A stretch of DNA of 64,000 nt from a virus. Of the stretch, positions 20,585 through 38,699 are shown one piece after another. The stretch lies in IMG/VR virus record IMGVR_UViG_3300030101_002520, positions 1 through 64,000 of that record; one strand, given 5' to 3'. A program made the translations under genes and the position numbers. A model generated the notes under the pieces. That model searched no databases. It had not been told where the DNA came from and saw only the letters and a program-made list of their open reading frames with translations. The stretch's first letter is position 1, and each line of letters opens with the position of its first letter.

Positions 20585-21498
20585 TGGCAATCTCACATAA
20601 ATATAGAACGTTTAATCAATTATTAGAAGATGTAACTATAGATTTTTCTAGTCAAGCTTTAGAAGGTATGGTTGAACCTCAACAGTTAATTAGAGTTGCA
20701 ATAAGAGTTAACTATGATTTAGGTTTAAGAATTAATAGAACAAAAGAATATCTTTTAGAAGTAGAACATGGTAAAGCAAAAATGCCAGCAGATTTTAAAT
20801 ATTTAAATTATGCTTTTGTATGTGATGAATTTAAAATAGTAAATACACTTCCTTCAGGTACACATATTGACACAACACAACCTAAATATGTACCAGCTCC
20901 TGATGGTGGTGATACAGGGCCTTGTGATGATCCTACATGTAAAGATGTTTGTATTGTCCAAACTTGTCCAGATGAAAAGAATGGAGAAACTGTGTTTAAT
21001 CAATATATGGTTGTTCAGTATATGGGTGCTGAACAGTATAGAACTTCTAATAGATTTTATCCTTTAAGAATTAAAGATAGTATTGGATCTGTACAAAACG
21101 GATGTCCAAATATGAATGTAGAGGCTGTTGATATAGCTGAAATAAGGGATGGTTATCTTTTAACTAATTTTGATACTGGTAAAGTATTTATAAGTTATCA
21201 AGGAGCTATGGAGGATGAGGATGGTAATCTTTTAGTTTTAGATCATCCTTACTGTAATGAATATTATGAGTATGCTTTAAAAGAAAGAATATTAGAGAAC
21301 ATGTTATTTGATGGAGAAAATGTATCACAAAAATTAGGATATATACAAGGTAGATTAAGAGCAGCTAGAAACAATGCTTTAGGATTTATAAATACACCGA
21401 ACTTTAAAGAAATGCAAAAAATATGGGAAGTAAATAGAAAGGCACAATATAATAATTATTATAATATGTTTAAAAGCTTTCCTACAACTAGAATGTAA
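20584..21498 (+). CDS. Tail tubular/ring protein (Ttub-like)
   Basis: GYLLTNFDTGKVFISYQGAMEDEDGNLLVLDHP motif characteristic of crAss-like tail tubular proteins; precedes the muzzle. Confidence 0.7.
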   Translation: MAISHKYRTFNQLLEDVTIDFSSQALEGMVEPQQLIRVAIRVNYDLGLRINRTKEYLLEVEHGKAKMPADFKYLNYAFVCDEFKIVNTLPSGTHIDTTQPKYVPAPDGGDTGPCDDPTCKDVCIVQTCPDEKNGETVFNQYMVVQYMGAEQYRTSNRFYPLRIKDSIGSVQNGCPNMNVEAVDIAEIRDGYLLTNFDTGKVFISYQGAMEDEDGNLLVLDHPYCNEYYEYALKERILENMLFDGENVSQKLGYIQGRLRAARNNALGFINTPNFKEMQKIWEVNRKAQYNNYYNMFKSFPTTRM

Positions 21499-24400: not shown

Positions 24401-27400
24401 ATTTATTAGGCAGGGTGCAAAGCCTGATCAAGATGAAGTAGAAGTTACACCATTAGATTTATTACCTTATGTTTCAACAAATTTAAATAATTTAATTCCT
24501 GGTGAAGTATTTAAAACAGAAACTTTATTTGGTGGTGATGTATATATAAATAGATATAGTGAGAAAGTTATAATGCCTTTCTTTTGGGAATTTTTAAATG
24601 GTCAACCTGATAACTTTGGATTTGATTATAGAGACTATCAAAATGTTCCTTATCCAAGATATTATATGAGTACAAATAAATATGATATGCATAATTTATT
24701 TGCCCCATTACTTGATTTAAGTTTTAACTGGTCAACAGGTGATAGTATTCCTAGTGCTATGCGTAATATGGATAAGGAAGGTGATGGTTTATCTGGATCT
24801 TTTGGTGGTGGTGGTACTATTAATATAGGTGCAGCTTCAGGTATAGGAACAGGTGGTCAAGGTGCTGCACAAGGTAGTAGTTTATTTGTATTAAGAAGAG
24901 CATACATGTACACTCATAATAGTGGTGTAAATGATTTCTTTGTAGAGTCTGAATTAAATCTTGCATATAGAGCACAAGGTGAAGGTAGAAAAGAAAAATA
25001 TTATGACTGGTCACAGTTTACAGATCTTAATACTTTATTTCATTCTGATATTATTAAAGAAGGTAATTTTTATAAGTATGATTATTCATTAAGTAAGTCT
25101 AATTTAATAAGTCAATTAATAAGTTACAGTTTAATACAAGGTAGAGATTATGATCCAAATGTAGCAGCTACATGTTATGATCACTATACAAAAAGAGTCT
25201 TATATTCATTACAAGCATTTAAAGAAGCTAAACAAGATTTCTGGAGAGTATACCTACCAAATAACTATAAAGACTTTAAGAATGCTCCTACAACTATTAA
25301 ACCTATATCTAAAACAGGAGCAATGATTTTATTTCCACATTTAGCTCCATTATTATTTGAAGGTGTTGATACACTTACAACTGATTTAGATACTAAACTT
25401 ACTATTGGTGATGGAGGTTTATTTAGTCAACCAATGAAGCAAATTACTACTGCTGATTTGCCACATGAATATGGATCATGTGAAAATTCTAGAAGTGTGA
25501 TTAATACACCAGCTGGTATTTATTATATCTCTCAAGCTCAAGGTAAAATATTTAATGTTTCAGGTCAAGGTTTAAATAATATTGCTGATGCTGGAATGAA
25601 ACAATGGTTTAATACATATTTACCATCTAGATTATTAGCTGCTTTTCCAGAAATAGAAGGCACAGATTTTGCTGATAATCCTGTTGTAGGTATAGGATGT
25701 CAAGCTGTATATGATCCTAATTATGATATAGTTTACTTTTCTAAAAAAGATTATGAACCTTGTAATGTAGATAGTTGTATAGAGTTTGATCCTACTATTC
25801 CTGGTTTTATTAATCCTTGTGAAAACCCTCCTGTTGAAGAATGTCCTGATGGATTTATTCTAAATGAAGAAACAGGATTATGTTGTACTGAGTGTTCTCC
25901 AATTCAAATAGATAATGGAGATCAGTGTTGTACTTGGTATTTTCAAGAACCTGATTTTGAATTGCCTAGTGCTCCTTCTGATGCTAATTTTGATGCAGTA
26001 GATTTATATTTAGAAAATGGCGGATTTCAAAATGAAACTGGAACTCCTTACTGGCCAGACTGTACATTTACCTCTGATAACGATGGCAGTTGTATTGACC
26101 AAATAATGCAAAGTGGGTGGGGAAATGTTCCTAGTCCATGGGAACCTTGCATGAAAGATTGTTGTGATCCTTATTTTATAGATGCTGATGGAATAGAACA
26201 GTGTTCTCCAGTTTGCGCAGGTCTTATTCCAACGCCTGACTGTGGTGAACAAGGACATGCTCAAACTACTGATAGTCTTAATGGTGAAATTTTTAGGCAA
26301 ACTAAAACAAGAACTTGTTGTGGTTTAAAACCATTTACAGGTACTACTTATTTAGGATTAGTACATCAATGGAATGGAAATTATCCAGGAGCATGGCAAG
26401 AAGGAGCAAGTCAGGAATTAAAAGATGAAGATGGTAATCCTCAACCAATGACTACTGGTGCTATATATGAAGGAAGAGTAGTAGTAGCAGCAGATTATCA
26501 AAAAAATCTTGATGGTGAACCAGGTTCTCCTTTGGTACTTATTGCTGGTATTTTAGGTGAGGAGGCTGAGTTCCCTCCACCTGATCCAGTATATGATACT
26601 TATTACACTAATATACCGCCAGAAGAAAATCAAGCACTATATGCTGATTTTCCTTATGATATTTATCAGTCTGCTTATCAGTGGGGCGTAAAATGGGAGA
26701 TAACATATAATATATTTGAAGATGTTACTTCAGTAGTTGATCTATTCAATTGCCGTTTGAATACTGAAGTTATATTGCAATGGGATGCAGAGTCACCACT
26801 TCGTGATTTAGAATTAAATGTATATCCAGTACTAGGTGGACCTAACGAAAATGAGTGGGGTGGATATCAAGGTCAATATTATAATAGACCTGAAATACAA
26901 ATATGGGGTAGTATGGAGCCTTGTCTTAGTGAGGACGGATATTGGTGTACTGCATTTGATACAGTAACTGTACCAGGTCCTGCATACGGTGATCCTGTAA
27001 ATGTAGTTGAATATATTGGAAGCCCTGATGATGCAGAATTACTTTGGAGATCAGGAGATATTTCTCAAGGTGGAACAGTGCATCATATAAATACCGGTTG
27101 GGTACCATATACTTATACATTACAACCAACAAAACCATGGAAGTATTTTACTTATCTAGTAAACGGTTTACCTGCTATTCACTATCAATTTAGCGGTAGC
27201 ACCATGACAGGTCAATATAGGGATGTAACTTCAACTGGTGCTTACTTATGTTTAGATAGCCTTACACCTCCTAGTGTTGTAATTACACCTGGGTTTTGTT
27301 CGTGTGCTGATCCTTATACTTTAGTTTTTGATGATGGTGAATATCAAACACCTGCAACAGAAGAAGATTGTCTTAATTTTCAAATAAATGGTACTAATCC

Positions 27401-30400
27401 TGTAATATGCGCATTACAAGAGTGTACAGATAAGGTGTGTACAGAACCCACACTTGTAAACCCTCCTATAGATATAACAAATAGTGAAGACTTTAAAGAT
27501 GTTTCTTGGACTGCAAGTTATGATCCTAAAATAAAAGGATGGATATCATTTCATGATTGGCATCCAGAACTTACTATATCTAGCTTAAATCATTTTATGA
27601 CTACAAAAATTAGTAGTATAGATAATTTATATTGTCCACCTAATTATGAGTTAAATCCAATAACTGGTCAATGTGATCCAATAAATATAGAATGCCCAGA
27701 AGGTTCAGTTTTAATAGATGGTGAGTGTTGTAGTGTTGCATATGGTGAATTAAATTATAACCCTGGTGATCTTGATAGTGTAGAGTATAACATGAATGAA
27801 GGAGTTGTAAATATGTTTACTAGGGTAGATACAACTAAATCTTATACATATAGTGATAAGAATACAATTCAATTTGAAATTGATGATAAAGTATTACAAA
27901 ATATAAAAAGATTTAAACCTAAGACTTTTAAATTAAATATACCTTTTTATGAGGATGAAACAATTGAGGTTACATTAGAACATACATCTGTAAGAAAGAA
28001 AGATTTTGTTTATTTAGCTAGAACTAAAGATGGATATGAAAGAAAAAATATATATCCTAATGTTCGTACATATAAAATTAAATCAGATAATATTAGTGGT
28101 ATATTAAGTATTTCTGATAACTCAGTAATAGGAACTTTAGTGAAAGATAAAAAGATATCTGAGATACATAGGGCTAATACTAATACACATGTTTTATATA
28201 AATCTTCTGATGCTAAAGTTAAATCAACATTCACATGTCTTACAGAAAATGCAAAAGATTCAGCTATAAGAGCAGCAGGTAGAAATACACAAACACCTAG
28301 ATCTTTAAATGCTCAGTGTATTACAATGGCTTTTGATATAGACTTTCCTACAGCAAATGCGCTTGGTGGTGATCTTCCTAATTTTTTAGAAACTGTAGTA
28401 GCTGGAATGAGTGAAATTTATACCAATGAATTAAATACAGAAATTATACTTGGTAGCATGGTAGTTTCAGAAGCAGAAGGTATTATTTATAGTGAACAAT
28501 TACCTGATATAGTGGATGAAAATGGAAATGTTATTGAAGCAGGAGAGTATGTAATACAATCATCTCAAGAGATGTTAGATTTATTAATTGATACTTGGAC
28601 AAATACTCCGGAGTTAGAAGATATTGAAAGAACTACTGTTCATTTAATAACTACAAGACTTTCTACTGGTAGAGCTAAAAAGTTAGGTTTATGTAGCAAG
28701 TCACAAAGTTTTGCTGTTTGTGGTTTAGCTTCATCATTTGTTATACAAGGTCAACCGGGTAGTTTGGGTTATTCAATTGAAGATGGTTGGGTAGGAGTTG
28801 CAATTTCTTGGCCACTAAAAGTTCTTTGTCATGAGCTTGGTCATAACATTGGATCTAGTCATACTCATGCTGGATATTGGCAACCAGATCCTAATTATAA
28901 TTTTCCAGGAGGCCCTATAGATTCTTGTGATTCATTTTCTAATACTTATGATCAAACTAATTCAAATGCTAGTGGAGTTGATCCTGATACTTTAGAATGG
29001 AATAGTAATATAGAATATGGAACAATAATGAGTTATTGTCAATGGTTACCTGATGCAGATGATCTAATGACTTTTGAATTTCATCCTATTGTTAAAGATC
29101 AAATATTAATTCCAAATCTAACTCAAGATTCAACTAATGCAATTCTTTATTTTGATGTATCAAGTCAAAATGCAGTATCTAGTGATGATATAATGGCAAC
29201 TCCATGTTTATCTTGCCCAGATGTTGTTACAGACGAAACATATGGATGTACCGATGTTAATGCATCAAATTATAATCCAAATGCAACAATTGATGATAAT
29301 AGTTGTGTATATGATATACCTGGAGGCTGCACTGATCCAACAGCATTAAATTATGATGTATCAGCAGAGGTTGATAATGGTAGTTGTATTTATGATTCTA
29401 CTTTTGGCTGTACTGATCCAATAGCAATAAACTACAATGCTAATGCAACCGATGATGATGGTTCATGCATTTATCCTCCACCAACTATATTAGGTTGTAC
29501 TGATCCTGCTGCATTAAATTTTGATCCTGCAGCTAACACACCTTGTACAACAGATGCCCAGGGTATTTTTAATTTTTTAAATGCTTGTTGTGTATATCCA
29601 CCTGTATTAACTTCTTGCACCTGCCCAAGTGGTTATATAATGATACAAGCAGGATCTTTAAACTCTAGCACACTTGAATATGTTGAAGCTACTGCAGCTG
29701 ATTGTCTTAATTGTGGAGGAACTTGTGTGGAATGTATTCAGATAAACTGCACTCCTTTAGATACAGATAGTTTAGAACCATCAGCTGGATCAGGAAGTTT
29801 ATGGAAACATAATGTTCGTTGTGATTTATTTAACAACTACTATGATGTACAATATCCTTGGGAGATAGAGCTTGTAGAAAGTATAGGTCAAACAGTTAAT
29901 ACTATAAGAAGTATTGAATATCAATTAGAATCATATTTACATCAACCAAAGTTAGATGAAGATGGTTGTGTTTTAAATTATGGATGTGATGATAGATGGC
30001 ATGATCTTAGTTATAATTTTGATGAAGCTATTATTTATAATACAGAACAAGTATCTGGTTTACTAACACTTACAGAACAGACAGCAGATGTTAATGATAT
30101 TGTTAGTTATCCAATAATAGGTGTAGCAGATATAAATATTCTTTATAGTAAAATAGAACAAAAATATAGGTTTGATCAATTTTGGGATGTTACAAATGAT
30201 AGGTCTGTACCTGAACCAATATTTATTACACAACTAAATGGTTATGTAAGAGATCTTAATGAGGCTTATATGAACTATAACAAGCCACAATTAGAACGTA
30301 AGAAGTTTAGACATTATGTGAATAATTTAATTTTAAGAAAGAAAGTTTCTGTTGATGAATTAGAACAACCAATACTTCATACAAGAAAGATGATACTTAA

Positions 30401-30437
30401 ATTAGTAAATACAAAAATAAATTTATCAGTTAGATAA
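21498..30437 (+). CDS. Tail stabilisation/muzzle protein expanded by two large insertions (CBM-like domain; reprolysin-type metalloprotease plus GCTD repeats)
   Basis: FIKGMNKD...GNE N-terminus, FMRDEQYSFFIRF, FGGDVYINRY and SWTASYDP...WISFHDW core motifs of crAss-like Tstab; HELGHNIGSSH and GTIMSYC within the insert. Confidence 0.8.
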   Translation: MAKKQSNFKPVNTSNIDTDVFIKGMNKDSHRSFVGKESWTHCRNCINNSAKGDAGTVGNEPATLLCITTGYTIIGAIYLYGDKWILYSTDDTNSEIGLFDDSECTYNPLVNDTCLNFNRFNLITGASKENFDCTWQVYWDDGLNPSRTINLGNKDEILENNYIPYVQVQVAGLDVNGDPCVEFENVQPLQLDCDRIRLAPLMKTPCVKLSKADSPGQLLNGSYQAYIAYLINEQQIGNYIGVSNVQALYDEGGTASSLDIKITNLDTNFSDYKLVLLINNQQQPQAIQVGIYSTHQTEINIDYVSENKATAAQVDIAELPLQNPAYERSDQMVPVNDYLLRIGPTTNFDFNYQPLANKITAKWVSVEYPAEYYKNGGSKPTFMRDEQYSFFIRFIYNTGDKSSSYHIPGRAYLTNNPIYGDEKGAPGQQNVLNNQETEIWQVNNTSFVDDFGPFDNPNTDDGGVIISKGQMGYWESTEFYPAEDPYGRWQELCGQPIRHHKFPDEQTDETVDRSNADNQKIRVLGVEFDNIAWPVDNEGQIIRNIVGYEILVGSRQGNKSILSKGIVRNMKQYRLPDAPQTGGNYGADNPFLTDTVGIMPNYPYNDLRNDQFLTANAPDGGNSNNPPMPVSGAFRCGDTTDFRGCNNFYTFHSPETSFQRPFLNPSEMKTYGYTRGKQQGFFRPSEGHPKNILIRDFVAIIAAFIGVGFAISKHRGKRTTELEIGGTVGYPVASAAIEPLETAFTASSLVGPGLGEVVYFNGTSGIIAANAVPAGIVGQLGGNRKITFEGTDVKSLPNIPAIISGLFTTMHYAAVGGQEVVDLVYNVAGEHQYAYKYNSYGLYSITSPIPIDQTFRQNITKSRYVGNTFQDFGSDDIFTNVRINNLYRPATVVVQTNGTADNILNALPTPFNFDVSRNTIGNLGITAFPTADIRSDIGAHYVAMKFAMDNQYGQLDGIKQVPIPCPQRFIRQGAKPDQDEVEVTPLDLLPYVSTNLNNLIPGEVFKTETLFGGDVYINRYSEKVIMPFFWEFLNGQPDNFGFDYRDYQNVPYPRYYMSTNKYDMHNLFAPLLDLSFNWSTGDSIPSAMRNMDKEGDGLSGSFGGGGTINIGAASGIGTGGQGAAQGSSLFVLRRAYMYTHNSGVNDFFVESELNLAYRAQGEGRKEKYYDWSQFTDLNTLFHSDIIKEGNFYKYDYSLSKSNLISQLISYSLIQGRDYDPNVAATCYDHYTKRVLYSLQAFKEAKQDFWRVYLPNNYKDFKNAPTTIKPISKTGAMILFPHLAPLLFEGVDTLTTDLDTKLTIGDGGLFSQPMKQITTADLPHEYGSCENSRSVINTPAGIYYISQAQGKIFNVSGQGLNNIADAGMKQWFNTYLPSRLLAAFPEIEGTDFADNPVVGIGCQAVYDPNYDIVYFSKKDYEPCNVDSCIEFDPTIPGFINPCENPPVEECPDGFILNEETGLCCTECSPIQIDNGDQCCTWYFQEPDFELPSAPSDANFDAVDLYLENGGFQNETGTPYWPDCTFTSDNDGSCIDQIMQSGWGNVPSPWEPCMKDCCDPYFIDADGIEQCSPVCAGLIPTPDCGEQGHAQTTDSLNGEIFRQTKTRTCCGLKPFTGTTYLGLVHQWNGNYPGAWQEGASQELKDEDGNPQPMTTGAIYEGRVVVAADYQKNLDGEPGSPLVLIAGILGEEAEFPPPDPVYDTYYTNIPPEENQALYADFPYDIYQSAYQWGVKWEITYNIFEDVTSVVDLFNCRLNTEVILQWDAESPLRDLELNVYPVLGGPNENEWGGYQGQYYNRPEIQIWGSMEPCLSEDGYWCTAFDTVTVPGPAYGDPVNVVEYIGSPDDAELLWRSGDISQGGTVHHINTGWVPYTYTLQPTKPWKYFTYLVNGLPAIHYQFSGSTMTGQYRDVTSTGAYLCLDSLTPPSVVITPGFCSCADPYTLVFDDGEYQTPATEEDCLNFQINGTNPVICALQECTDKVCTEPTLVNPPIDITNSEDFKDVSWTASYDPKIKGWISFHDWHPELTISSLNHFMTTKISSIDNLYCPPNYELNPITGQCDPINIECPEGSVLIDGECCSVAYGELNYNPGDLDSVEYNMNEGVVNMFTRVDTTKSYTYSDKNTIQFEIDDKVLQNIKRFKPKTFKLNIPFYEDETIEVTLEHTSVRKKDFVYLARTKDGYERKNIYPNVRTYKIKSDNISGILSISDNSVIGTLVKDKKISEIHRANTNTHVLYKSSDAKVKSTFTCLTENAKDSAIRAAGRNTQTPRSLNAQCITMAFDIDFPTANALGGDLPNFLETVVAGMSEIYTNELNTEIILGSMVVSEAEGIIYSEQLPDIVDENGNVIEAGEYVIQSSQEMLDLLIDTWTNTPELEDIERTTVHLITTRLSTGRAKKLGLCSKSQSFAVCGLASSFVIQGQPGSLGYSIEDGWVGVAISWPLKVLCHELGHNIGSSHTHAGYWQPDPNYNFPGGPIDSCDSFSNTYDQTNSNASGVDPDTLEWNSNIEYGTIMSYCQWLPDADDLMTFEFHPIVKDQILIPNLTQDSTNAILYFDVSSQNAVSSDDIMATPCLSCPDVVTDETYGCTDVNASNYNPNATIDDNSCVYDIPGGCTDPTALNYDVSAEVDNGSCIYDSTFGCTDPIAINYNANATDDDGSCIYPPPTILGCTDPAALNFDPAANTPCTTDAQGIFNFLNACCVYPPVLTSCTCPSGYIMIQAGSLNSSTLEYVEATAADCLNCGGTCVECIQINCTPLDTDSLEPSAGSGSLWKHNVRCDLFNNYYDVQYPWEIELVESIGQTVNTIRSIEYQLESYLHQPKLDEDGCVLNYGCDDRWHDLSYNFDEAIIYNTEQVSGLLTLTEQTADVNDIVSYPIIGVADINILYSKIEQKYRFDQFWDVTNDRSVPEPIFITQLNGYVRDLNEAYMNYNKPQLERKKFRHYVNNLILRKKVSVDELEQPILHTRKMILKLVNTKINLSVR
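29241..29597 (+). repeat. Four GCTD-x-x-A-x-N-[YF]...SC-x-Y disulfide repeats
   Basis: YGCTDVNASNYNPNATIDDNSCVY, GGCTDPTALNYDVSAEVDNGSCIY, FGCTDPIAINYNANATDDDGSCIY, LGCTDPAALNFDPAA... Confidence 0.9.
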
Positions 30438-33169
30438 TGTATAGTAAAGACGGATATAAAAGAAATAGCAAGGATAGAAATAATCCATTTAATATAATAC
30501 CATCAGGTAATATAACTATGGAGGATGTAGACTTTCCTGTGTTTGGTATGGATAACTTAGGTAATAGTAAACTTATGATGCCGGGTGCTAACTATCAATT
30601 TCCAGGTGATGAAGTTTTTGAAATGCCTTTACCACAATACCAAAGAGCAGGTGCACTAAAAACAATTTTAAACTTTTTTAAACCTGCAGTAAAAAAAGTT
30701 GATGATGTAGTAGACATTGCAAAAGTAGATGATATTATTGATCCTCTTAATATTAGAGAGATGCCTCCAGGTTTAAACATGCCTAGACAAAAAGACTGGT
30801 TATTTAAAAGACATACTAATGTTGATGATATAATGGAACCAATGGAGTTTCCAGGTAATGTAATTCGTAGTGGAGTACCAGTTCCTACTAAAATAAGTTG
30901 GTTTACTCCATCTTCAAGAGCTTATTCAGATTATGGTTCTATGACATTTCAAGGAAATATAGTTCCTAAAAATCCTCTTTATCTTGATAGAAATAGAATA
31001 TATAGTGAAGAGTTTATGAAAGATGTTATGAATAAAGGTTATGATGCTATTATAGTTAGAGGTAGAGTTAATAATACAGGACCTCTTGTAGATGATATAA
31101 GATATGCAAAAGAAGTTATTCCTTTAAATAAAGATCTTATTAAAAATTTAGAAAGGATAAGAGAGTATGGCGGTTCATTACCAAAATTTCAAAACGCTGG
31201 TGAGTATGATGAGGATGGATATAAGACTGTGACATATGGTGCTAATAAAAAGAAATATCAAGATACAGGTGATTGGTCAGAGTATGAACCTTATGAAACA
31301 TATAGTGGTCAAACATATAGAAAAAGAACATATGAATTAAGCAGAGATGATTTAAGATATTTAGAATATAAAAAAAGTTTTCTTAAAGATGCTAATTATA
31401 GAACAGGTAAAAATAATGCTCCAAGAAATCTTACACAATTTATAAGAAATTCTAATAAAGCTTGGAGAGTACAAGAGATTATAAAAGATAATGGAGCAGT
31501 ACTATATCAATTACAATATCCAACTGAAACAGGTTTTAGAACATTTGCATCAGGTGATGCTAACTCAGGTCTTGCTAATTTAAATCCTGAGTATGTGCAA
31601 GGTTTAAAGAAAACAGGTAAAAAAGGTATTACTCAATTCAGTAGCTGGTTTGATATGGCACCACAAGAAAGAAAAGACTATGGATATAATGAGTGGTTTG
31701 ATCAAGGTTTTAAAAGAGATCTTAAAATTAATAAAGATGGAAAGACAAAAAGTGGCTGGAAATATTATGGTGAAAAAACACCTTTAACATATACATTAAG
31801 TGATGTAGAAGTACGTAAATTACCTAAATCAATAGTTCAAAAATACAATCTTGTTGGAAATGATAAAATAAAACTTAGTCCTACAACCGGAGAAATTTAT
31901 TTTATAACTGGAACTGGTAGTTTTAGAAATGTTGTTAATCAAAAGGATATGCAATGGTTTCAAAATCCAGGCAGATTAAAAGAATTAGCATATGATTCTA
32001 GATTTAATTACAAAGAAGATAATGTATTAGATTATTTAAACAATCCTGATTTCAGATATTTTGCTGATAGTCAAACAACTACTTTGGATCCTGTTAAACT
32101 AGATGGTTTACCTTCAGAAAAAAATATGTCTTTGCAAAAACCTAAACCTTATGAATCTACAGTTACTTTAGAACCTAAAACTTTAGATCAAATAGAAACA
32201 GAAAGAGAAGATGAGATAATAAAAAGAAGACCATATGAAGCTCCTGTTACTTTAGATCCAGTAGAATTTAAAGGCTTTTCTGATAAAGAAGAAAGTATAA
32301 AAAAATCTAATCCTTATGAATCTGCAATAACTTTAGATAAAAAAGAAATTGAAGAGATTCCTGTAGATGAGAGCTCTTTAATAGAAAGACGTAAGCAAGA
32401 AACACCAATTACATTAGATCCTATAAATGTAACTGGTATTGATTCAGATGGAACTATAACAACAGATGCATCAAAACAAAGGTTTGTTCCAAAGCCTGAC
32501 ATTCAAACAGATATGCCTGATATAGTTCTTACTCCTGAAATGGAAGAAAAAAGAGATAAAGCTAAAACTGTTGAAGATATTATGGGTAATCTTCAAGATG
32601 TTAGAGGTACAACAAAATATGTAAATAAATCTGCAAAGGCTATATTAGATGCAGTAAATAAAGAAGACTATACTGAAAAAGATTTATCAAGAGATTTAGG
32701 TATATTTGAAAAATATTATGGTCAAGAAAATTTAGGTTATCTAAAAGATATGTTAGATAAAACACAAGGTCCTAAAGCAAATAAAGGTATAGAAGTTTTA
32801 GAAGATGGAAAGTTTGATATAAAGATGAATAGGTTAAATTCTATTATTGATAAGTATGATGCAGATCAAGATCTTTCACCTGCTGAAATGGAATTATTAG
32901 AATCTTATGGTTTAATGTCTAAGACAGAACCAGAGGTGGAAGAAGTAAAAGAAACTGATTTAGTTATAGATAATAAGAAGTTTAGTTTAGATGATCAGAT
33001 TTATATTTATAATCAGTATTTAGATAGCGCATTTACAAGTGATGATGAAGAAAAAAGTGGTAATAAAATAGTTGATAAAATAAATAGAGTATATTATAAT
33101 CAAGCTAAGCAAAAAGATATACATGTGTATGACTTATTATTAGCTATGCAAACTGAGATGAGACAATAG
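30437..33169 (+). CDS. Putative virion cargo polyprotein: N-terminal IPSGNITM domain, ART-like domain, variable region, ~28-aa repeats
   Basis: TAATG-coupled to the muzzle; modules delimited by PQYQRAG / YGGSLPKFQNAG / PKANKG. Confidence 0.6.
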   Translation: MYSKDGYKRNSKDRNNPFNIIPSGNITMEDVDFPVFGMDNLGNSKLMMPGANYQFPGDEVFEMPLPQYQRAGALKTILNFFKPAVKKVDDVVDIAKVDDIIDPLNIREMPPGLNMPRQKDWLFKRHTNVDDIMEPMEFPGNVIRSGVPVPTKISWFTPSSRAYSDYGSMTFQGNIVPKNPLYLDRNRIYSEEFMKDVMNKGYDAIIVRGRVNNTGPLVDDIRYAKEVIPLNKDLIKNLERIREYGGSLPKFQNAGEYDEDGYKTVTYGANKKKYQDTGDWSEYEPYETYSGQTYRKRTYELSRDDLRYLEYKKSFLKDANYRTGKNNAPRNLTQFIRNSNKAWRVQEIIKDNGAVLYQLQYPTETGFRTFASGDANSGLANLNPEYVQGLKKTGKKGITQFSSWFDMAPQERKDYGYNEWFDQGFKRDLKINKDGKTKSGWKYYGEKTPLTYTLSDVEVRKLPKSIVQKYNLVGNDKIKLSPTTGEIYFITGTGSFRNVVNQKDMQWFQNPGRLKELAYDSRFNYKEDNVLDYLNNPDFRYFADSQTTTLDPVKLDGLPSEKNMSLQKPKPYESTVTLEPKTLDQIETEREDEIIKRRPYEAPVTLDPVEFKGFSDKEESIKKSNPYESAITLDKKEIEEIPVDESSLIERRKQETPITLDPINVTGIDSDGTITTDASKQRFVPKPDIQTDMPDIVLTPEMEEKRDKAKTVEDIMGNLQDVRGTTKYVNKSAKAILDAVNKEDYTEKDLSRDLGIFEKYYGQENLGYLKDMLDKTQGPKANKGIEVLEDGKFDIKMNRLNSIIDKYDADQDLSPAEMELLESYGLMSKTEPEVEEVKETDLVIDNKKFSLDDQIYIYNQYLDSAFTSDDEEKSGNKIVDKINRVYYNQAKQKDIHVYDLLLAMQTEMRQ
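32078..32440 (+). repeat. About five degenerate 27-28-aa repeats (PYE-x-x-[VI]-TL[DE]P-[VI])
   Basis: TTLDPVK, PYESTVTLEPK, PYEAPVTLDPVE, PYESAITLDKK, QETPITLDPINVTG. Confidence 0.8.
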
Positions 33170-33193
33170 CTATAATTAGATTATCTCCTTAAT

Positions 33194-33214
33194 ATTTAGT
33201 ATATTATTATATAG
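33194..33214 (+). promoter_or_regulatory. Putative late promoter TTTAG-TATATTATTATATAG
   Basis: Recurrent motif, nearly identical to 13285-13301. Confidence 0.55.
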
Positions 33215-33225
33215 ACTGTATTTTT

Positions 33226-36200
33226 ATGTATAAAAAGTTAAAAAAATATCAAAACGGCACAGGTATTATACCTACAGAGATTGATAAAACTTATGTTGCT
33301 CCTGAATATGCTTTTCCTGGTGCATATAGGGGTGTTGGTTCAGGGGAAAGATCAAAGTCTGAGATTGAACAAATGATGTATAGTATTTTTGGTCCGCCGC
33401 CTTCTACAGCAGAAGAGATGATGCAATTAACGGATGATATAGCTATGACAAACATTGATCTAAAAAGAGACATGAAAGGTGATAATAGTTTAACACGTGG
33501 TACAATTAATCTTTTAAAAGCAATAGGTAAAGGAATTGTTAGTAATCCGTTAGGTGTTTTTGTTGCAGAAAATATAGATGCAATACTTACTGATGAAGGT
33601 CCTACTGATTATCAAAAAGACTTTTTATTTCCTGGTGTATATGATGATAGAACACCAATTATTATGAACTATGGATCTGAGTTACGTAAGGCTCAAGAAG
33701 GTAATATTGAGGATGAACCTTTATATCAAAGTTTAAAAAACTATTTAGATGATCCTGAAAGAGCTAAGTTAGTTGCAGAGAATCCTTTACTACCTGCAGC
33801 TGAAGAATATATTTACGGTAATCTATTAAATCCACCACAGTTTATGGGAGATGATAGTATATCAATTGATTTAATGGCTGGAGATGATGGTGTAATTGAT
33901 GCTAATGACTTAACGCTTATAAAAAATGAATCTCAAAGAAATTTACAAAAAGCAGGTTATAATCCTGATAAGGTAAAAACTTTTAAAGAGTATGGGCAGG
34001 ATGCATTAAGATTTTTAGGCAATGTTGGTAGAGGTGCTAGAACTGCATTTGCTAGAAATCCGCTTGGTTTACTTTTAGCAAATACTGTTGGAGAAGCTTA
34101 TGATTATGCAACAACTGGTGAATTACCAGAGCCAAGTCCTTATATGCAAATGTTAACAGGTACATTTGGTCAGCCAGATGAAAATCAAATATATGCTTAT
34201 GGTGATGAGATTAGAGATCTTGTAACTCCACAAAAAAATCCTAATATACAAAATATATATGAAGGTGATGATAGATTTACTATATCTAAAATGGAAAGAG
34301 AGAAAGAGAAAACAGATAAGCTTTTTCAGGAACAACAAGAGTATTTATATGATGAGTCTGGATTTCTTAATCCAAACTTAGATTTATCTAAAAATCCATT
34401 AAGAAATAAAAAGTATACACTATACAATCCATATAGTGAAGATATGTTTTATGATCCTATGAATCCTACTAAATTATTTACTGAAACAGAGTATGGAGAG
34501 TATCAAGATGATATGACAACTACAAGAACTATAGCAGCTTTAAATCAAAGAGCTGACATGTATCCAGAATTATTTCAAAAGGTAACAGGTTTTGATCCTG
34601 AAACAAAAGAAATAACATATGCAGGAGATAAACTAGAAGGAGATTTATTTAGTGACGCAAATCCTGATTCTGCTTATTTACAATATACTACACCTGAAGG
34701 TGAAGAGTCAGGTAGTTTTACAGGTAGTTTAGTATCTGATGCAGAAGGTGATATAACAGCTCCTGTATATGATCCTTTTGATCAATATGAAAATGATGAA
34801 GGTACATATACTTTCATGGAAGCAGAGGCTAAATACGGTGGTATACCAAAATACCAAAGAGCAGGAACTATAAGGAGAATAATGAATTTTTTTAAAGGTG
34901 CAGATGATGTAGCTGATGTTGCAAAGACAGCTAATACCGGTGTTTCTAAGAATGAAATTTTACAAAAGTTTTTACAACAAGGTGATAATTTAGAGAATTA
35001 TAATGACATGATTACTAGAGGATTTAATATAGATTTAAATTCACCATTAAGTAGACAGGCTATTACAAATTATAAAACTAAGTTTCCTTTAAATTTTGGT
35101 GCATCAGATGAGCTTGCTGCAACTACCAAAGATTCTAAAGAAGTTATTGAGGCTCTTGGTTATGATGCAATAACAAAAAGAGCAAACCTTTTAGATGATT
35201 ATATTGCAAAAAATCCTGGTTACAAAACATCACCAGAAGATTTTACTTATTTAGGTAATAAGAGTGGTAGACAAATAGTATCTGTTGACACTCCTGTTGG
35301 AACACAATATTTTTATAAGTCTTCAGGTCTTGCTGGAAAAAAAGGATCAAAGGATATGTGGGTTCCATTAGAAGGATTTTTAGATGATACTTCAGGAATG
35401 GCAGTAAATAGATTGAAAGGAAATCCTGATTGGTTTATGAAAAGAGGATCAGTGGGAACATATAAAGGACAACCAATTGAAACAATAAGTTTTGCAGATA
35501 AAACTACTAAGGGTGTAAAACAACAGTTAATAGATATGGGTGTTGATCCTAATGAAGCTTTAAGATCTGGAGATCTTATATTAGATAAACCTGGCTGGGA
35601 TTTTGCATATACTACAAATCCTGATTCATTTTATAATAAATTGTCTAATCAGCTAGATAGAATAACACAAGAAAAAGGTTGGGGTGTTCTTGATAAAACA
35701 ACTAGAGCACATGGTGGACCACATACTGAAGAAGAGTGGGAAGAGTGGAGACAACAAAGAGAAAACTATCAACAAAATAATATGTCTAATGAATCCGTTG
35801 GTAATGAATTTAATTATTATGATAGTATAGCACCAGGTTCATATGATTCTAGTGTAATGGATAATATGTATTTTGCTGATCAGTTTCAAGAAAAAATAGA
35901 AGAAGACACTGATGATGAGTTTGAATTTGCTGATCCTAATAAACCAGTTATGAGTGTAAAGGATGAAGAGCGTAAACCAAGAGATTTTAACTTTAAACCA
36001 TTTGAAGCTTTAGTTACAGGATTAGGTGCAGTAAATCAAATGTTAGAAAACAGACCAAAAGATTTTTCTACTAACCAATTAGCAATGAATCAGTTTCAAG
36101 AAGACACAAGAAATAATAGAGGATTTTATGATGTTAATACTGGTATTTTAAATCCAGATAGAAATATTGTAGAAAGACAAGCTGCATATGGAGGTAGAAC

Positions 36201-36309
36201 TGATCAATTAAGAAATAGACAATATGATGATATTGATACTACAATAGAATTAGATGAAGGAACAATACAAGAACTAATAGCTGCTGGAGCAGAAATAGAT
36301 ATATTATAA
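33226..36309 (+). CDS. Putative virion cargo polyprotein with multiple GG-motif-delimited modules and a toxin-like domain
   Basis: KKYQNG, MNYGSELRKAQEG, YAYG, AKYGGIPKYQRAG, RAHGG and AAYGG motifs; C-terminal ELDEGTIQELIAAGAEIDIL. Confidence 0.55.
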   Translation: MYKKLKKYQNGTGIIPTEIDKTYVAPEYAFPGAYRGVGSGERSKSEIEQMMYSIFGPPPSTAEEMMQLTDDIAMTNIDLKRDMKGDNSLTRGTINLLKAIGKGIVSNPLGVFVAENIDAILTDEGPTDYQKDFLFPGVYDDRTPIIMNYGSELRKAQEGNIEDEPLYQSLKNYLDDPERAKLVAENPLLPAAEEYIYGNLLNPPQFMGDDSISIDLMAGDDGVIDANDLTLIKNESQRNLQKAGYNPDKVKTFKEYGQDALRFLGNVGRGARTAFARNPLGLLLANTVGEAYDYATTGELPEPSPYMQMLTGTFGQPDENQIYAYGDEIRDLVTPQKNPNIQNIYEGDDRFTISKMEREKEKTDKLFQEQQEYLYDESGFLNPNLDLSKNPLRNKKYTLYNPYSEDMFYDPMNPTKLFTETEYGEYQDDMTTTRTIAALNQRADMYPELFQKVTGFDPETKEITYAGDKLEGDLFSDANPDSAYLQYTTPEGEESGSFTGSLVSDAEGDITAPVYDPFDQYENDEGTYTFMEAEAKYGGIPKYQRAGTIRRIMNFFKGADDVADVAKTANTGVSKNEILQKFLQQGDNLENYNDMITRGFNIDLNSPLSRQAITNYKTKFPLNFGASDELAATTKDSKEVIEALGYDAITKRANLLDDYIAKNPGYKTSPEDFTYLGNKSGRQIVSVDTPVGTQYFYKSSGLAGKKGSKDMWVPLEGFLDDTSGMAVNRLKGNPDWFMKRGSVGTYKGQPIETISFADKTTKGVKQQLIDMGVDPNEALRSGDLILDKPGWDFAYTTNPDSFYNKLSNQLDRITQEKGWGVLDKTTRAHGGPHTEEEWEEWRQQRENYQQNNMSNESVGNEFNYYDSIAPGSYDSSVMDNMYFADQFQEKIEEDTDDEFEFADPNKPVMSVKDEERKPRDFNFKPFEALVTGLGAVNQMLENRPKDFSTNQLAMNQFQEDTRNNRGFYDVNTGILNPDRNIVERQAAYGGRTDQLRNRQYDDIDTTIELDEGTIQELIAAGAEIDIL

Positions 36310-36311
36310 TT

Positions 36312-38699
36312 ATGGGAAGAAAAGTAAAAATAAAAAGTTTACCAAAAGGCTTTATACTTAAAGATAATAAAATAATTAAAGAGTATGGAGGTTCTAAAAC
36401 TGGTGACCAAGTAGGATATGGTTTAACTACATTTCCTAAAACTAATGATGCTAATGGTATGGGTGATTCTACTAGCACATTTTTTCCATCTAAAAATGAG
36501 ACTAAATATACATTACAGCCAGATCCTAGAAAAGAATCTAATGTAGAAGCTGAAAAAAATGAAACAGTTCTTACAGATTTAAATTTTGATGGTGATTTTG
36601 AATTCTATAATATTGGAGGTAAAAGGCATAATCAAGGTGGTACACCTTTAAATTTACCAGAACAGTCATTTATATATTCAGATACTAGATCTATGAAGCT
36701 TACAAAAGATGAAATGTCAGAGCTTAATGTAGATTCTAAAAAAAGAATAACGCCAGCTAAAGTATCTAAAAATTTTGAGTTAAATAAATTTACTGAACTT
36801 TTAAATGATCCTTATGCTGATAAAATACAAAAGGATACAGCTGACTATATGTTAGATAAAAATAAAAATAAACTATCTCATTTAGCATTTGTACAAGAAG
36901 CAAAAAAAGATTTTGAAGAGGGTGTTCCTAAAGCAGCCTTTCCTTATTTAAAAAAGAAAGGAATTGATCCTATAAAGTATGCTGATATTATGGAAAAAAT
37001 AAATACACAACAAGAAGCACTAGCAGAAAAGATGGAGATGGGTCCTACAGATCAAGAAAAAACTCAAGTGCTTATGTCTTTTCTTCCAGGTAATGATCAA
37101 GAGTCTGCACCTCAAATGCAACAGCCTGCACCAATGCAACAAAATATGCCTATGAATAATCCTATGACTATGGCACAAGGTGGTACAGAAATAACAGACT
37201 TTGAAAAGAATTGGAATAGTTCTAAGTATGATGATTTAAAAGAAGAGTTTTATGCCCAGTATGCAGCCGTATTAGATAAAGATGAGTTAAGTGATGAAGA
37301 GAAGACAGCAATAGATAAATTGCTAATTCAAGATACTCAGATGAAAACTTTAATGCATGATAATTTTGAAAGTGATTATTTTACAGGAAAAGATTGGGAT
37401 GCAGGGGGTGACCAAAGGAATGCAAGGTATAATGCTGCTGTACAAAAGTTAATTGATGATGGACTATACGAAGGTGAAGCATTAACGGAAGATCAAATTA
37501 AAGAAGTTCAGAATGCACATATTGTTTTAAATAATATGTCTGTTATGCCTGAGTATGAGAAACTTATGACCGATACTGGTTTAAATTTATTAGGCCCTGA
37601 ACAAAAAGGTAATCTTGGTTCTAATCAAACTTTATCTAGATCTGATGGTGTTGCTGGTGATAATTTTATAAATACATTCCCTACAACTAAGACTACTATT
37701 ACACCTGATGAAAATACTCCTAAGATAAATTTACCTGTTGGTGATGAGTATGTTCAGCCAGATCCTGGCTATTGGTTGCAGGATAATATGAACTTATTAG
37801 GATCTATAATGGACAAGTTTACTATTAAGAAAAGAGGTCCTGTATTATCACAATACCAACCTGAGTATATTGATGCAATGTATCTTAGCCCTACAAGACA
37901 GTTTGCAAAGATAGGTGAGATGGCTGCTCAAGCTACAAAAGCAGCTACAACATTTGCTGGTCCTCAAAGAGCTTTAGCAGTAGCTAGTAAAGTTCAAGGA
38001 GAAGCAATGAAGCAACTTGCAAATGTACAAGCTGATACTGATAATAAAAACTTAGCAATATTTACAGATGTAGATGGTAAAAATACTGTTATAAGAAATC
38101 AGTTTGAAGAGATGAATAAAAGAGCATTATCTGATTTCTATGATAAGACACAGTTAACAGAAGAAAATTATGATACTGCTATAAGGAATGCAAATCAAGC
38201 AATTGGTAGACAATTAGTAGCAAGAGAGACTAATAGAGCTATGACTAAGAACCTTAATACTTTATATCCTGCATTTGATATTGATCCTACAAAAGGAGGA
38301 GATATAAATATTCTAGACTATAACATGTTCTTTCCAACTGATGATGCTAGTGAAACAGCATATAATACTAAAGTAAATAGGATAAAACAATTAATTGATG
38401 ATGAAGTAATAGATAAAGTAACGGGTGATAAGTTATTATTAGATTTAATTAATACGGATCTTAATGCTCCTAAAGCAAATCCTTATGAGAATACTATTTT
38501 AAATCAGATGAATTATCCTAGTTATGGTCAGTTTAATCAGTTTACAAATCCTCTTATGCAGCAACTTGCTATGTTGAATCAAATGAATCAACAAAATAGA
38601 AGAAGTCCATATGGGGAAGAAGGTATGGAAGTAGGATATGTGCCAGTTAATCCTTTTACGTTAAGAAGACCTAAGAGAAAATTGGTTGATTTGGATTAA
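36312..38699 (+). CDS. Virion cargo/ejection protein with NVEAEKNE...GGKRHNQGG...FIYSD domain and helical C-terminus
   Basis: Position among the cargo genes; KEYGG and MAQGG motifs; A/Q/N-rich coiled-coil C-terminal half. Confidence 0.55.
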   Translation: MGRKVKIKSLPKGFILKDNKIIKEYGGSKTGDQVGYGLTTFPKTNDANGMGDSTSTFFPSKNETKYTLQPDPRKESNVEAEKNETVLTDLNFDGDFEFYNIGGKRHNQGGTPLNLPEQSFIYSDTRSMKLTKDEMSELNVDSKKRITPAKVSKNFELNKFTELLNDPYADKIQKDTADYMLDKNKNKLSHLAFVQEAKKDFEEGVPKAAFPYLKKKGIDPIKYADIMEKINTQQEALAEKMEMGPTDQEKTQVLMSFLPGNDQESAPQMQQPAPMQQNMPMNNPMTMAQGGTEITDFEKNWNSSKYDDLKEEFYAQYAAVLDKDELSDEEKTAIDKLLIQDTQMKTLMHDNFESDYFTGKDWDAGGDQRNARYNAAVQKLIDDGLYEGEALTEDQIKEVQNAHIVLNNMSVMPEYEKLMTDTGLNLLGPEQKGNLGSNQTLSRSDGVAGDNFINTFPTTKTTITPDENTPKINLPVGDEYVQPDPGYWLQDNMNLLGSIMDKFTIKKRGPVLSQYQPEYIDAMYLSPTRQFAKIGEMAAQATKAATTFAGPQRALAVASKVQGEAMKQLANVQADTDNKNLAIFTDVDGKNTVIRNQFEEMNKRALSDFYDKTQLTEENYDTAIRNANQAIGRQLVARETNRAMTKNLNTLYPAFDIDPTKGGDINILDYNMFFPTDDASETAYNTKVNRIKQLIDDEVIDKVTGDKLLLDLINTDLNAPKANPYENTILNQMNYPSYGQFNQFTNPLMQQLAMLNQMNQQNRRSPYGEEGMEVGYVPVNPFTLRRPKRKLVDLD

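What the first reader, a model, noticed from the sequence alone, without database searches (positions are those of the whole stretch)
30437..38699. Candidate undescribed system: injected 'cassette polyproteins' whose modules are delimited by a recurrent [YFA]-[QAE]-x-G-G / P-K-[YF]-Q-x-A-G motif
Seen: three consecutive cargo genes between the muzzle and the vRNAP block carry about a dozen copies of one short motif, apparently at boundaries between compositionally unrelated segments. Copies: LPQYQRAG (30629), REYGGSLPKFQNAG (31160), PKANKG (32771), KKYQNG (33241), MNYGSELRKAQEG (33664), YAYG (34192), AKYGGIPKYQRAG (34828), RAHGG (35704), AAYGG (36181), KEYGG (36378), MAQGG (37170), YGEEG (~38610). 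Several are tandem doublets (YGG closing one module, PKYQxAG opening the next). Known: genes at this position in crAss-like phages encode packaged, ejected proteins, and from memory similar [FY]AxGG motifs occur near the processed C-termini of lambda-like tape-measure proteins. Inference: the motif is a maturation-cleavage or capsid-loading tag, so each gene is a polyprotein delivering a variable set of effectors (anti-defence or host takeover) at injection.
Basis: partly seen in the sequence, partly recalled or inferred. Interest (0 to 1): 0.88.

Follow-up and report, generated by a model that had tools for sequence, protein, structure and literature searches.

The report
Joint motif in crassvirus cargo proteins
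Three injected "cargo" proteins of a marine crAss-like phage are built from swappable modules joined by a short, conserved Gly-Gly motif. The same motif occurs in the cargo protein C1 of the model gut phage ΦcrAss001. Whether it is a cutting site, a hinge or a docking tag is still untested.

Summary
All 12 strings sit at the stated coordinates. A matrix trained only on other genomes supports 7 of them strongly. Four or five more are degenerate copies at positions where relatives carry canonical ones. One (PKANKG) is noise.

The motif is about 10-fold enriched in the three genes after the muzzle gene. It is at background in the muzzle, gene D and the giant protein. This holds in 13 independent related loci and in ΦcrAss001 gp45.

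The motif marks module joints. Most of 119 homologues of gene A lose similarity at or just after residues 64-68. Two cassettes (A 73-241, B 548-826) are replaced or absent between motif copies. The empty site reads as a start-cap fused to an end-cap.

Passenger modules in homologues include SLT, LysM, YkuD, GH24, ART-PolyVal, zincin and kinase-like domains.

Cleavage is not shown. No maturation protease was found, and one ΦcrAss001 copy is modelled uncut. My best reading is an uncut structural joint (0.4); a protease site is at 0.3.

The scan noted the same motif on another genome (e1-5849112, e1-5849102).

The parts
30437..33169 (+). Gene A (910 aa): cargo protein with a conserved N-terminal handle, exchangeable cassettes and a conserved C-terminal part
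   Evidence: ORF. There are 182 word-search homologues and 2,385 cluster representatives for the N-handle. No Pfam or PHROG hit.
30437..30628 (+). A N-handle (aa 1-64), about 70% identical in otherwise unrelated proteins
   Evidence: The N-terminal HSPs of 68 of 119 homologues end at query residues 64-68.
30629..30652 (+). Motif copy LPQYQRAG (A 65-72), start-cap
   Evidence: Posterior 0.98. In 121 of 166 distinct junctions the handle is followed by P-[ML]-A-[QK]-x-G.
30653..31159 (+). Cassette A1 (aa 73-241), fold unknown
   Evidence: Replaced by other modules in P0021-P0024 and kept, with added sequence before it, in P0020. Found at other positions in P0025-P0029. The Atlas gives only a lead to ART-PolyVal (0.86). 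No Pfam hit.
31160..31201 (+). Motif doublet REYGG-SLPKFQNAG (A 242-255): end-cap plus start-cap
   Evidence: Posteriors 1.00 and 1.00. P0020-P0024 have the same junction after different cassettes.
31247..31270 (+).
   Evidence: Posterior 0.54.
32771..32788 (+). PKANKG (A 779-784): listed copy without support
   Evidence: Not among the scored sites.
33226..36309 (+). Gene B (1027 aa): short N-leader, mosaic body, conserved C-terminal module and tail
33241..33258 (+). KKYQNG (B 6-11): degenerate start-cap behind a basic leader
   Evidence: Conserved as KKYQNAG or NKYQNG in homologues. B-family N-termini in other loci read K-[AY]-Q-x-G-G.
33664..33702 (+). MNYGSELRKAQEG (B 147-159): degenerate doublet
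   Evidence: Conserved in the family consensus. A cluster of 6 HSP ends lies at residue 160.
34192..34203 (+). YAYG (B 323-326): relic copy
   Evidence: P0008 has FEEGG-SLANYGEE at the same junction. HSPs start at residues 314-325.
34828..34866 (+). Doublet AKYGG-IPKYQRAG (B 535-547)
   Evidence: Posteriors 0.28 and 0.97. G538, P541 and Q544 are invariant in 13 homologues.
34867..35703 (+). Cassette B1 (aa 548-826), fold unknown
   Evidence: Absent from P0008-P0010, whose empty site reads AKYGG-IPEAQRAHGG. The same module sits in gene A of L007 and L012.
35704..35718 (+). RAHGG (B 827-831): end-cap of cassette B1
   Evidence: Posterior 0.96.
36181..36195 (+). AAYGG (B 986-990): copy before the C-terminal tail
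   Evidence: Posterior 0.80. Most of the 22 loci have x-G-G followed by a tail of about 20-40 aa (37 aa here) ending LIAAGA[DE]IE.
36196..36306 (+). B C-terminal tail (aa 991-1027), the C-handle
   Evidence: It is combined with an A-type N-handle in the 186-aa protein P0317.
36312..38699 (+). Gene C (795 aa): likely counterpart of crassvirus cargo protein C1
   Evidence: 695 homologues of residues 1-240; alignment.
36378..36392 (+). KEYGG (C 23-27)
   Evidence: Posterior 1.00. In the AF2 model it lies between a β-hairpin (aa 14-23) and a 37-aa stretch with pLDDT below 50.
36495..37001 (+). C domain (aa 62-230), resembling the portal-binding domain of ΦcrAss001 gp45
   Evidence: AF2 pLDDT is mostly above 90. 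VIA-align ranks 7qog_M second of 48,161 chains: Z 6.0, rmsd 4.8, 96 of 126 residues aligned, 19% identity.
37170..37184 (+). MAQGG (C 287-291): degenerate copy after a P/Q/M-rich linker
   Evidence: Relatives carry LPKAQxG or ARYGG at this place.
38610..38624 (+). YGEEG (C 767-771): degenerate copy about 25 aa before the C-terminus
   Evidence: Relatives have K-x-G-G-E here.
21498..30437 (+). Muzzle protein (2979 aa) with a reprolysin-like zincin insert (aa 2275-2467, nt 28320-28898)
   Evidence: PF25731 at 4e-17 and PF13688 at 7e-9. Among related loci only L003 shares the HExxH.

Best explanation
The three genes encode cargo (ejection) proteins of a marine crAss-like phage.

Architecture. Each protein has conserved terminal handles:
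- A has a 64-aa N-domain.
- B has a short basic leader and a C-terminal module ending in an acidic tail.
- C has an N-terminal hairpin, a C1-like portal-binding domain and a conserved C-domain.
Between the handles sit exchangeable passenger cassettes. Each cassette carries a start-cap, (L/I)P-K-[YAF]-Q-x-[GA]-G, and an end-cap, [KR]-x-Φ-G-G. Where two modules meet this gives the doublet Φ-G-G-x-LPK-Φ-Q-x-G.

Shown: the motif is specific to these proteins, lies at joints and near protein termini, and brackets cassettes that are swapped, deleted or moved between genes A, B and C of related phages.

Inferred: the caps are protein-level structural joints, a tight Gly-Gly turn braced by an aromatic and basic residues. 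They let neighbouring modules unfold and refold independently while one uncut chain is stored in the virion and threaded N-to-C through portal and tail. Because all cassettes share the caps, any cap-to-cap recombination yields an in-frame working chimera. This would explain the rapid turnover of passengers (cell-wall hydrolases, ART-like, zincin and kinase-like modules).
For: Specificity:
- Window: 10 strict copies against 1.3±1.1 in shuffles; 4 in 17,642 control aa.
- Held-out matrix: 2.9 sites per kaa in A-C against 0.28 in the rest of the window and 0.32 in muzzle, D and giant proteins of other loci.
- 13 independent loci: the PKxQ form occurs 28 times against 2.7±1.4 expected.
- ΦcrAss001: 5 matrix hits in gp45; 2 in about 8,800 aa of seven other proteins.

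Joints:
- A N-handle HSPs end at residues 64-68 in 68 of 119 homologues.
- 121 of 166 distinct junctions read P-x-x-[QK]-x-G.
- Cassette B 548-826 is absent from P0008-P0010, leaving AKYGG-IPEAQRAHGG.
- Cassette A 73-241 is replaced by other modules before the same ...PKFQNAG-EYDEDGYK junction.
- Modules are shared across genes A, B and C.
- HSP ends lie near the motif 96 times against 59.8±7.2 expected.
- 7 of 19 well-supported window breakpoints lie within 15 aa of a listed copy (p=0.01).
- None of about 22 sites falls inside a Pfam domain in 7 homologues.
- Gaps between sites are bimodal: 7-12 aa and 160-640 aa.
- Sites are enriched near termini: 60 against 18.6±4.0 near the N-terminus, 72 against 30.9±4.7 near the C-terminus.
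- A gene split in L019 falls between the two halves of a doublet.

Uncut chain:
- The ΦcrAss001 C1 model (resolved residues 425-552 per PMC10172136; 126 residues in chain 7qog_M) runs from the AFGG copy (residues 425-428) straight on into the domain.
- No maturation protease was detected.
- Motif copies 8 aa apart in L019 B would give useless fragments if cut.
Against: - The hinge or insulator role is pure inference; no structure of a joint was obtained. AF2 of full-length B failed (pLDDT 33).
- A passive joint does not obviously need a conserved aromatic-Q-x-G-G sequence from marine phages to a gut phage.
- Short leaders and tails flanking motif copies at both protein termini resemble propeptides.
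- Zincin modules are frequent in this gene block: HExxH occurs 9 times in A/B of 4 related loci, with well under 1 by my rough estimate expected by chance, plus the muzzle insert here.
- In ΦcrAss001 two ordered C1 segments sit in different compartments, which cutting would explain simply.
Confidence: 0.4

Rival explanations
1. The motif is a proteolytic processing site. A virion-borne zincin (in the muzzle here, in the cargo in relatives) or a host protease cuts at or next to G-G or A-G. This would remove the short leaders and tails and release the passenger modules as separate proteins during maturation or after ejection, making these true polyproteins.
For: - The G-G or A-G ending with upstream specificity residues resembles many protease sites (established knowledge of double-glycine, adenain, ASFV and poxvirus sites).
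- Short leaders and tails flank copies near termini.
- Zincin modules are enriched in this block.
- Polyvalent proteins are predicted to be processed, and P1 DdrB is processed (PMC5512222).
- Cell-wall hydrolases and ART-type effectors share single chains.
- ΦcrAss001 C1 segments lie in the tail and in the capsid.
Against: - No prohead, ClpP, S49 or cysteine protease was found. The only peptidase-like hits are a reprolysin insert and a DUF2201_N domain.
- HExxH is present in only 6 of the 12 genomes whose muzzle protein was read (the window and 5 loci) and in none of the window's A-C.
- Cargo proteins contain no Cys.
- In ΦcrAss001 C1 the AFGG copy (residues 425-428) is modelled in one chain with the domain that follows.
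- ΦcrAss001 virion gels have bands at 85 and 100 kDa, compatible with intact 90.8-kDa gp45, though band assignments were not retrievable.
- The residue after G-G is only weakly constrained (E at 33%).
Confidence: 0.3
2. The motif is a loading or docking tag: a short linear motif bound by a common virion partner (portal, tail-barrel rings, muzzle or a scaffold). It would position each module in the capsid or tail cargo zones, or order their exit.
For: - In ΦcrAss001 both resolved C1 segments (214-245 on the tail barrel, 425-552 on the portal) start at or just after a copy and are followed by another.
- The motif is restricted to cargo proteins.
- It is enriched behind N-terminal leaders.
- Basic residues precede it.
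Against: - Except for AFGG, the copies are not among the ordered residues of ΦcrAss001 C1.
- Proteins with 10-16 copies (L019 B, L022 B) would need many binding sites.
- No partner was tested.
Confidence: 0.2
3. The motif has no function of its own. It is the most conserved part of a mobile leader or linker that spread by descent with the cassettes, and junctions survive there only because linkers tolerate recombination.
For: - A 30-aa leader (motif plus an amphipathic helix plus FFKG-x-DDV) is shared by A 65-97 and B 540-568 (55% aa identity; 72% nt identity) and recurs in L007 A.
- Only 13% of all HSP ends lie near a motif.
Against: - The motif is conserved at the protein level between unrelated flanks, in thousands of cluster representatives and in ΦcrAss001.
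- The copies have diverse codons and residues, which argues for selection on a pattern rather than common descent of one DNA segment.
Confidence: 0.08

Closest known systems
ΦcrAss001 cargo protein C1 (gp45; PDB 7QOG and related entries; PMC10172136)
   Same: - It is encoded right after the muzzle gene.
- The gene C domain (aa 62-230) aligns with its portal-binding domain: rank 2 of 48,161 chains, Z 6.0, 96 of 126 residues.
- gp45 carries the same motif: SAYGG, AFAEGG, KAFGG, NAFGG, FAYGG. It has 5 matrix hits, against 2 in seven other ΦcrAss001 proteins.
- The copies bracket its two resolved segments.
   Different: - No sequence homology is detectable by BLASTP, HMM or hhalign.
- The portal-binding domain is central in gp45 and N-terminal in gene C.
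- Genes A and B have no counterpart in ΦcrAss001.
- The paper I read (PMC10172136) does not mention proteolysis or cleavage, and I found no description of the motif in the papers I searched.
Polyvalent proteins of phages and conjugative elements (Iyer et al. 2017, PMC5512222)
   Same: - Large multidomain proteins predicted to be packaged and injected.
- Variable architectures with ART-PolyVal, zincin peptidases and lytic enzymes.
- Homologues of gene A carry PF18760, M91-like, SLT, LysM, YkuD, GH24 and kinase-like domains.
   Different: - Here there are fixed N- and C-terminal handles, a fixed genomic slot between the muzzle and the polymerase genes, and a short conserved joint motif. The word 'linker' does not occur in that paper.
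- The window's own three proteins have no recognisable Pfam domain and no zincin.
Junction motifs of polymorphic toxins (VENN in CdiA, DPxGL in Rhs; PMC3482391)
   Same: A short conserved motif separates a constant part from exchangeable modules. It is thought to aid recombination and, in some systems, processing (established knowledge).
   Different: - Here there are many internal copies and conserved C-terminal handles.
- The cassettes are internal, there are no immunity genes, and the sequences are unrelated.
T4 internal proteins and Alt, with an N-terminal capsid-targeting sequence cut by the prohead protease
   Same: Packaged, injected accessory proteins with a short N-terminal leader (established knowledge).
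   Different: T4 sites are L/I-x-E and need the prohead protease gp21. No such protease was found here.

Membership tests
Crassvirus cargo protein C1 (gp45-like) | Gene in the virion block just downstream of the muzzle gene | tested here: met
   The muzzle is PF25731 at 4e-17. The order muzzle-A-B-C-D-giant is conserved in 22 loci.
Crassvirus cargo protein C1 (gp45-like) | Portal-binding domain fold | tested here: inconclusive
   7qog_M ranks 2 of 48,161 chains, with Z 6.0, rmsd 4.8, 96 of 126 residues and 19% identity. It covers more of the domain than the other rows, but its Z does not stand above them. Foldseek gave nothing.
Crassvirus cargo protein C1 (gp45-like) | Detectable sequence homology to gp45 | tested here: not met
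   BLASTP E=0.35. A profile against PDB sequences gave no gp45 hit. hhalign gave probability 0.3.
Crassvirus cargo protein C1 (gp45-like) | Present in virions and ejected | not testable with these tools
   Needs virion proteomics; the phage is uncultured and known only from metagenomes.
Polyvalent proteins (Iyer et al. 2017) | Several unrelated enzymatic or effector domains in one polypeptide | tested here: inconclusive
   The window proteins have no Pfam or PHROG hit; the Atlas gives a lead to ART-PolyVal at 0.86. Homologues with the same handle do meet this feature.
Polyvalent proteins (Iyer et al. 2017) | Embedded zincin-like peptidase | tested here: not met
   There is no HExxH in A, B or C. 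A zincin is present in the muzzle and in A/B of L007, L008, L019 and L022.
Protease-processed viral polyprotein | A dedicated protease is encoded | tested here: inconclusive
   Only a reprolysin insert and a DUF2201_N domain were found among the three large ORFs flanking the cargo block (muzzle, 4979-aa, 1938-aa), genes A-D and 39 ORFs of the other genome half. Small ORFs and several virion ORFs remain unassigned or were not run against Pfam.
Protease-processed viral polyprotein | Mature products begin or end at the motif | not testable with these tools
   The only indirect datum is that the ΦcrAss001 C1 model (resolved residues 425-552 per PMC10172136) includes the AFGG copy at 425-428 in one chain with the domain that follows.
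Polymorphic toxin systems | Variable domain at the C-terminus, followed by an immunity gene | tested here: not met
   The cassettes are internal and the C-termini are conserved. No small ORF lies between the genes.
   In Bacteroides phage B40-8 the three largest tail-region proteins have no matrix hit. One hit (EKYQNGG) lies at the N-terminus of a 307-aa protein. Only one phage was tested.

The most novel reading that the evidence does not exclude
Crassviruses package true polyproteins. The Φ-G-G / LPK-Φ-Q-x-G joints would be cleavage sites for a virion-borne zincin or a host protease, so one gene delivers a recombinable set of separate effectors. ΦcrAss001 C1 would then be cut into a tail-barrel peptide and a portal-bound domain.
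Probability: 0.3. Interest if true: 0.85.

Novelty: new variant of a known kind. Interest (0 to 1): 0.62.

Why it matters
- The motif gives a simple sequence grammar for cutting the large, unannotated cargo proteins of crassviruses into modules. Crassviruses are among the most abundant phages in the gut and the ocean. The two handle families alone have thousands of cluster representatives.
- That would let ejected effectors be catalogued and tested one by one.
- It points to a concrete experiment on ΦcrAss001 gp45: is the chain cut at the motif?
- It suggests natural insertion points for foreign passengers in phage-delivered proteins.

Tried and rejected
- Phage collection: no match for the 8.3-kb stretch by megablast, nor for gene B, gene C or gene D by tblastn.
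- IMG/VR scans with gene B and with P0008 found nothing.
- AF2 of full-length B was unusable (pLDDT 33).
- Foldseek of the gene C domain against the PDB gave nothing below E=0.1.
- Gene D against ΦcrAss001 gp46 by hhalign: no relation detected (probability 0.5%).
- Pfam on the two cassettes alone at E up to 10: nothing.
- The Atlas gave no lead for cassette B1.
- Hydropathy and disorder-type composition around sites do not differ from other glycines.
Identity is 72% over 78 nt; only the 23 nt encoding PxYQRAG are 22/23 identical, as expected from A/T-rich codon bias.
- The muzzle zincin cannot be the general processing enzyme: it occurs in only 2 of 12 muzzle proteins, the window's own and 1 of 11 from related loci.
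- The E-x-E...H-x-x-GG...YSD segment as a processing enzyme: rejected in favour of a C1-like portal-binding domain.
- ΦcrAss001 gel-band assignments could not be retrieved from the text or supplements.
- Four literature searches found no description of the motif. The library is limited.
Full report
**Context**

The window is the virion half of a 115-kb crAss-like phage genome, about 30% G+C, with all large genes on the + strand.
- The portal and major capsid protein are recognised by PHROGs.
- The 2979-aa ORF ending at 30437 is a crassvirus muzzle protein (PF25731, 4e-17) with a reprolysin-like zincin insert.
- Three genes follow. I call them A (30437-33169, 910 aa), B (33226-36309, 1027 aa) and C (36312-38699, 795 aa).
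- After them come D (1122 aa), a 4979-aa protein and a 1938-aa protein.
- A, B and C have no Pfam or PHROG family and no relative among cultured phages.
- A metagenome scan gave 22 related loci, marine and freshwater. They share the order muzzle-A-B-C-D-giant, with very variable lengths for A and B.

**The observation**

The literal consensus is poor: [YFA][QAE]xGG matches once in these proteins. The underlying signal is strong:
- [YF]Q.[AG]G occurs 3 times in A and B and nowhere in the other ~17,600 aa of window ORFs scanned.
- The union of strict forms occurs 10 times against 1.3±1.1 in shuffles, and 4 times in 17,642 control residues.

To avoid circularity I counted the same patterns in A/B/C proteins of 13 non-redundant other loci:
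- The PKxQ form occurs 28 times against 2.7±1.4 expected.
- [YF]Q.[AG]G occurs 17 times against 2.0±1.4 expected.
- Muzzle, D and giant proteins sit at expectation.

An EM-derived matrix from 164 non-redundant cargo proteins, with the window held out, gives the consensus (E)-L-P-K-[KYAMF]-[QK]-x-G-G-[ES]-[LV]-(P)-(K)-x-(Q).
- It finds 8 sites in A-C (2.9 per kaa) against 0.28 per kaa in the rest of the window and 0.32 in control proteins of other loci.
- AKYGG, KKYQNG, NYGSELRKAQEG, YAYG, MAQGG and YGEEG are weak here. They occupy positions where relatives have canonical copies.
- PKANKG is noise.

**The motif marks joints**

Gene A:
- Its first 64 residues form a handle conserved at about 70% identity: 182 word-search homologues and 2,385 cluster representatives (754 at E≤1e-10).
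- The handle is followed by P-[ML]-A-[QK]-x-G in 121 of 166 distinct junctions.
- After this point the proteins become unrelated. 68 of 119 N-terminal HSPs end at residues 64-68.
- Close homologues P0021-P0024 replace residues 73-241 with other modules, including SLT-containing and kinase-like ones; P0020 keeps most of the cassette and adds other sequence before it. All rejoin at the same GG-SLPKFQNAG / EYDEDGYK junction.
- The window's cassette itself recurs at other positions in P0025-P0029, each time closed by [RK]-K-Y-G-G-x-D-L-P-x-A-Q.

Gene B:
- P0008-P0010 lack residues 547-815.
- Their empty site reads AKYGG-IPEAQRAHGG, which is a start-cap fused directly to an end-cap.
- The missing cassette sits in gene A of L007 and L012, again flanked by the motif and by the same 30-aa leader.

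Across all proteins:
- HSP ends fall within 15 aa of a motif 96 times against 59.8±7.2 expected. Most ends are not at motifs, as expected for fuzzy BLAST ends and for divergence inside modules.
- Gaps between sites are bimodal, at 7-12 aa (doublets) and at 160-640 aa (domain-sized).
- Sites are about three-fold enriched within 35 aa of N-termini and within 60 aa of C-termini.
- None of about 22 sites falls inside a Pfam domain in seven annotated homologues.
- In L019 a split of gene A into two genes falls between the two halves of a doublet...FSKGG plus 10 aa and a stop, then M-KLKKF-LPTYQTRG.

**The genes**

Passengers in A-handle proteins include SLT, GH24 lysozyme, YkuD, LysM, PG_binding_1, ART-PolyVal, an M91-like zincin and RIO/Kdo-like kinase domains. 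This is the repertoire of 'polyvalent proteins', which are predicted to be packaged and injected (PMC5512222).

The window's own cassettes remain unassigned. There is no Pfam hit even at E=10. A language-model lead to ART-PolyVal for A 73-243 scores only 0.86.

B ends in x-G-G plus a conserved acidic tail (here 37 aa, about 20-25 aa in many loci)...LIAAGA[DE]IE[IL]L, found in all 22 loci. P0317 (186 aa) joins an A-type handle to this tail, which shows that the two handles can act on one chain.

Gene C has a conserved leader (M-x-K-x-K-I-N-K-L-P-x-G-F...G-G), a conserved domain, a P/Q/M-rich linker ending in the motif, a variable middle and a conserved C-domain.
- AF2 with 72 sequences gave pLDDT above 90 for residues 62-240.
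- It also gave a β-hairpin at residues 14-23 and disorder from residue 25, directly at KEYGG.
- An exhaustive structural scan put the ΦcrAss001 C1 portal-binding domain (7qog_M) at rank 2 of 48,161 chains, aligning 96 of its 126 residues. Z is 6.0, which is middling. Sequence methods see nothing.

ΦcrAss001 gp45 has the motif too: 5 matrix hits and 8 pattern hits in 842 aa, against 2 in about 8,800 aa of seven other ΦcrAss001 proteins. Its two resolved segments, 214-245 (tail barrel) and 425-552 (portal), are bracketed by SAYGG/AFAEGG and NAFGG/FAYGG.

**Mechanism**

Nothing computable here decides what the motif does.

Against cleavage:
- No prohead, ClpP-type or cysteine protease was found. 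The only peptidase-like hits are the muzzle reprolysin insert and a DUF2201_N/VWA protein.
- The muzzle zincin is shared by only one related locus.
- A-D contain no Cys.
- The AFGG copy of ΦcrAss001 C1 is modelled continuous with the following domain.
- Some proteins carry copies 8 aa apart.

For cleavage:
- The sites end in G-G or A-G.
- Propeptide-like leaders and tails flank copies at both protein termini.
- HExxH modules occur in A/B of four related loci (9 seen; by my rough estimate well under 1 expected by chance).
- There is the precedent of processed polyvalent proteins.
- ΦcrAss001 C1 has pieces in two compartments.

My weights are: uncut structural joint that also makes cassettes interchangeable, 0.4; protease site, 0.3; docking or loading tag, 0.2; functionless relic, 0.08.

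**Novelty**

Crassvirus cargo proteins and polyvalent proteins are known. The cap-delimited cassette grammar, the two handle families and the presence of the motif in ΦcrAss001 C1 were not found in the papers I could search. The same motif was noted by first readers on a related genome; its strings match locus L003.

Noticed in passing
window 32136-32440 (gene A, aa ~565-665): Three to four tandem units of 27-28 aa with the core P-Y-E-x-x-[VI]-T-L-[DE]-P sit inside gene A. They are unrelated to the joint motif.
   Followed up: partly
window 28320-28898 (muzzle, aa 2275-2467): A reprolysin/M12-like zincin (HELGHNIGSSH at aa 2445) is inserted in the muzzle protein. Among 11 related muzzle proteins only L003 has an HExxH.
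   Followed up: partly
window 30437-57082: Proteins A, B, C and D contain no cysteine, and the 4979-aa protein has one. The muzzle has 79.
   Followed up: yes
G000 64001-115139 (loci L024-L026): One ORF of the other genome half carries a T9SS C-terminal sorting domain (Por_Secre_tail, 6e-11), which points to a Bacteroidota host. Another carries DUF2201_N metallopeptidase plus VWA domains. The alignment-mode scan does not say which ORFs these are.
   Followed up: no
window 57082-62898: The 1938-aa protein after the giant ORF has a LysM domain at aa 465-491.
   Followed up: no
P0317 (186 aa, metagenomic): This minimal protein joins the A-type N-handle, two motif copies and a B-type C-terminal tail.
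   Followed up: partly
P0259 (4767 aa): An adhesin-like protein of about 100-aa tandem repeats matched residues 28-74 of the A handle in 33 stretches. The handle may share a small β-fold with these repeats, or the score may be a repeat artefact.
   Followed up: no
L027 26651-27574 (Bacteroides phage B40-8, ORF 24): This 307-aa hypothetical protein of a siphophage starts with a leader ending in EKYQNGG. It is the only matrix hit in that genome.
   Followed up: no
L007, L008, L019, L022 (genes A/B): HExxH zincin-like motifs occur 9 times in cargo proteins of four related loci; by my rough estimate well under one is expected by chance.
   Followed up: partly
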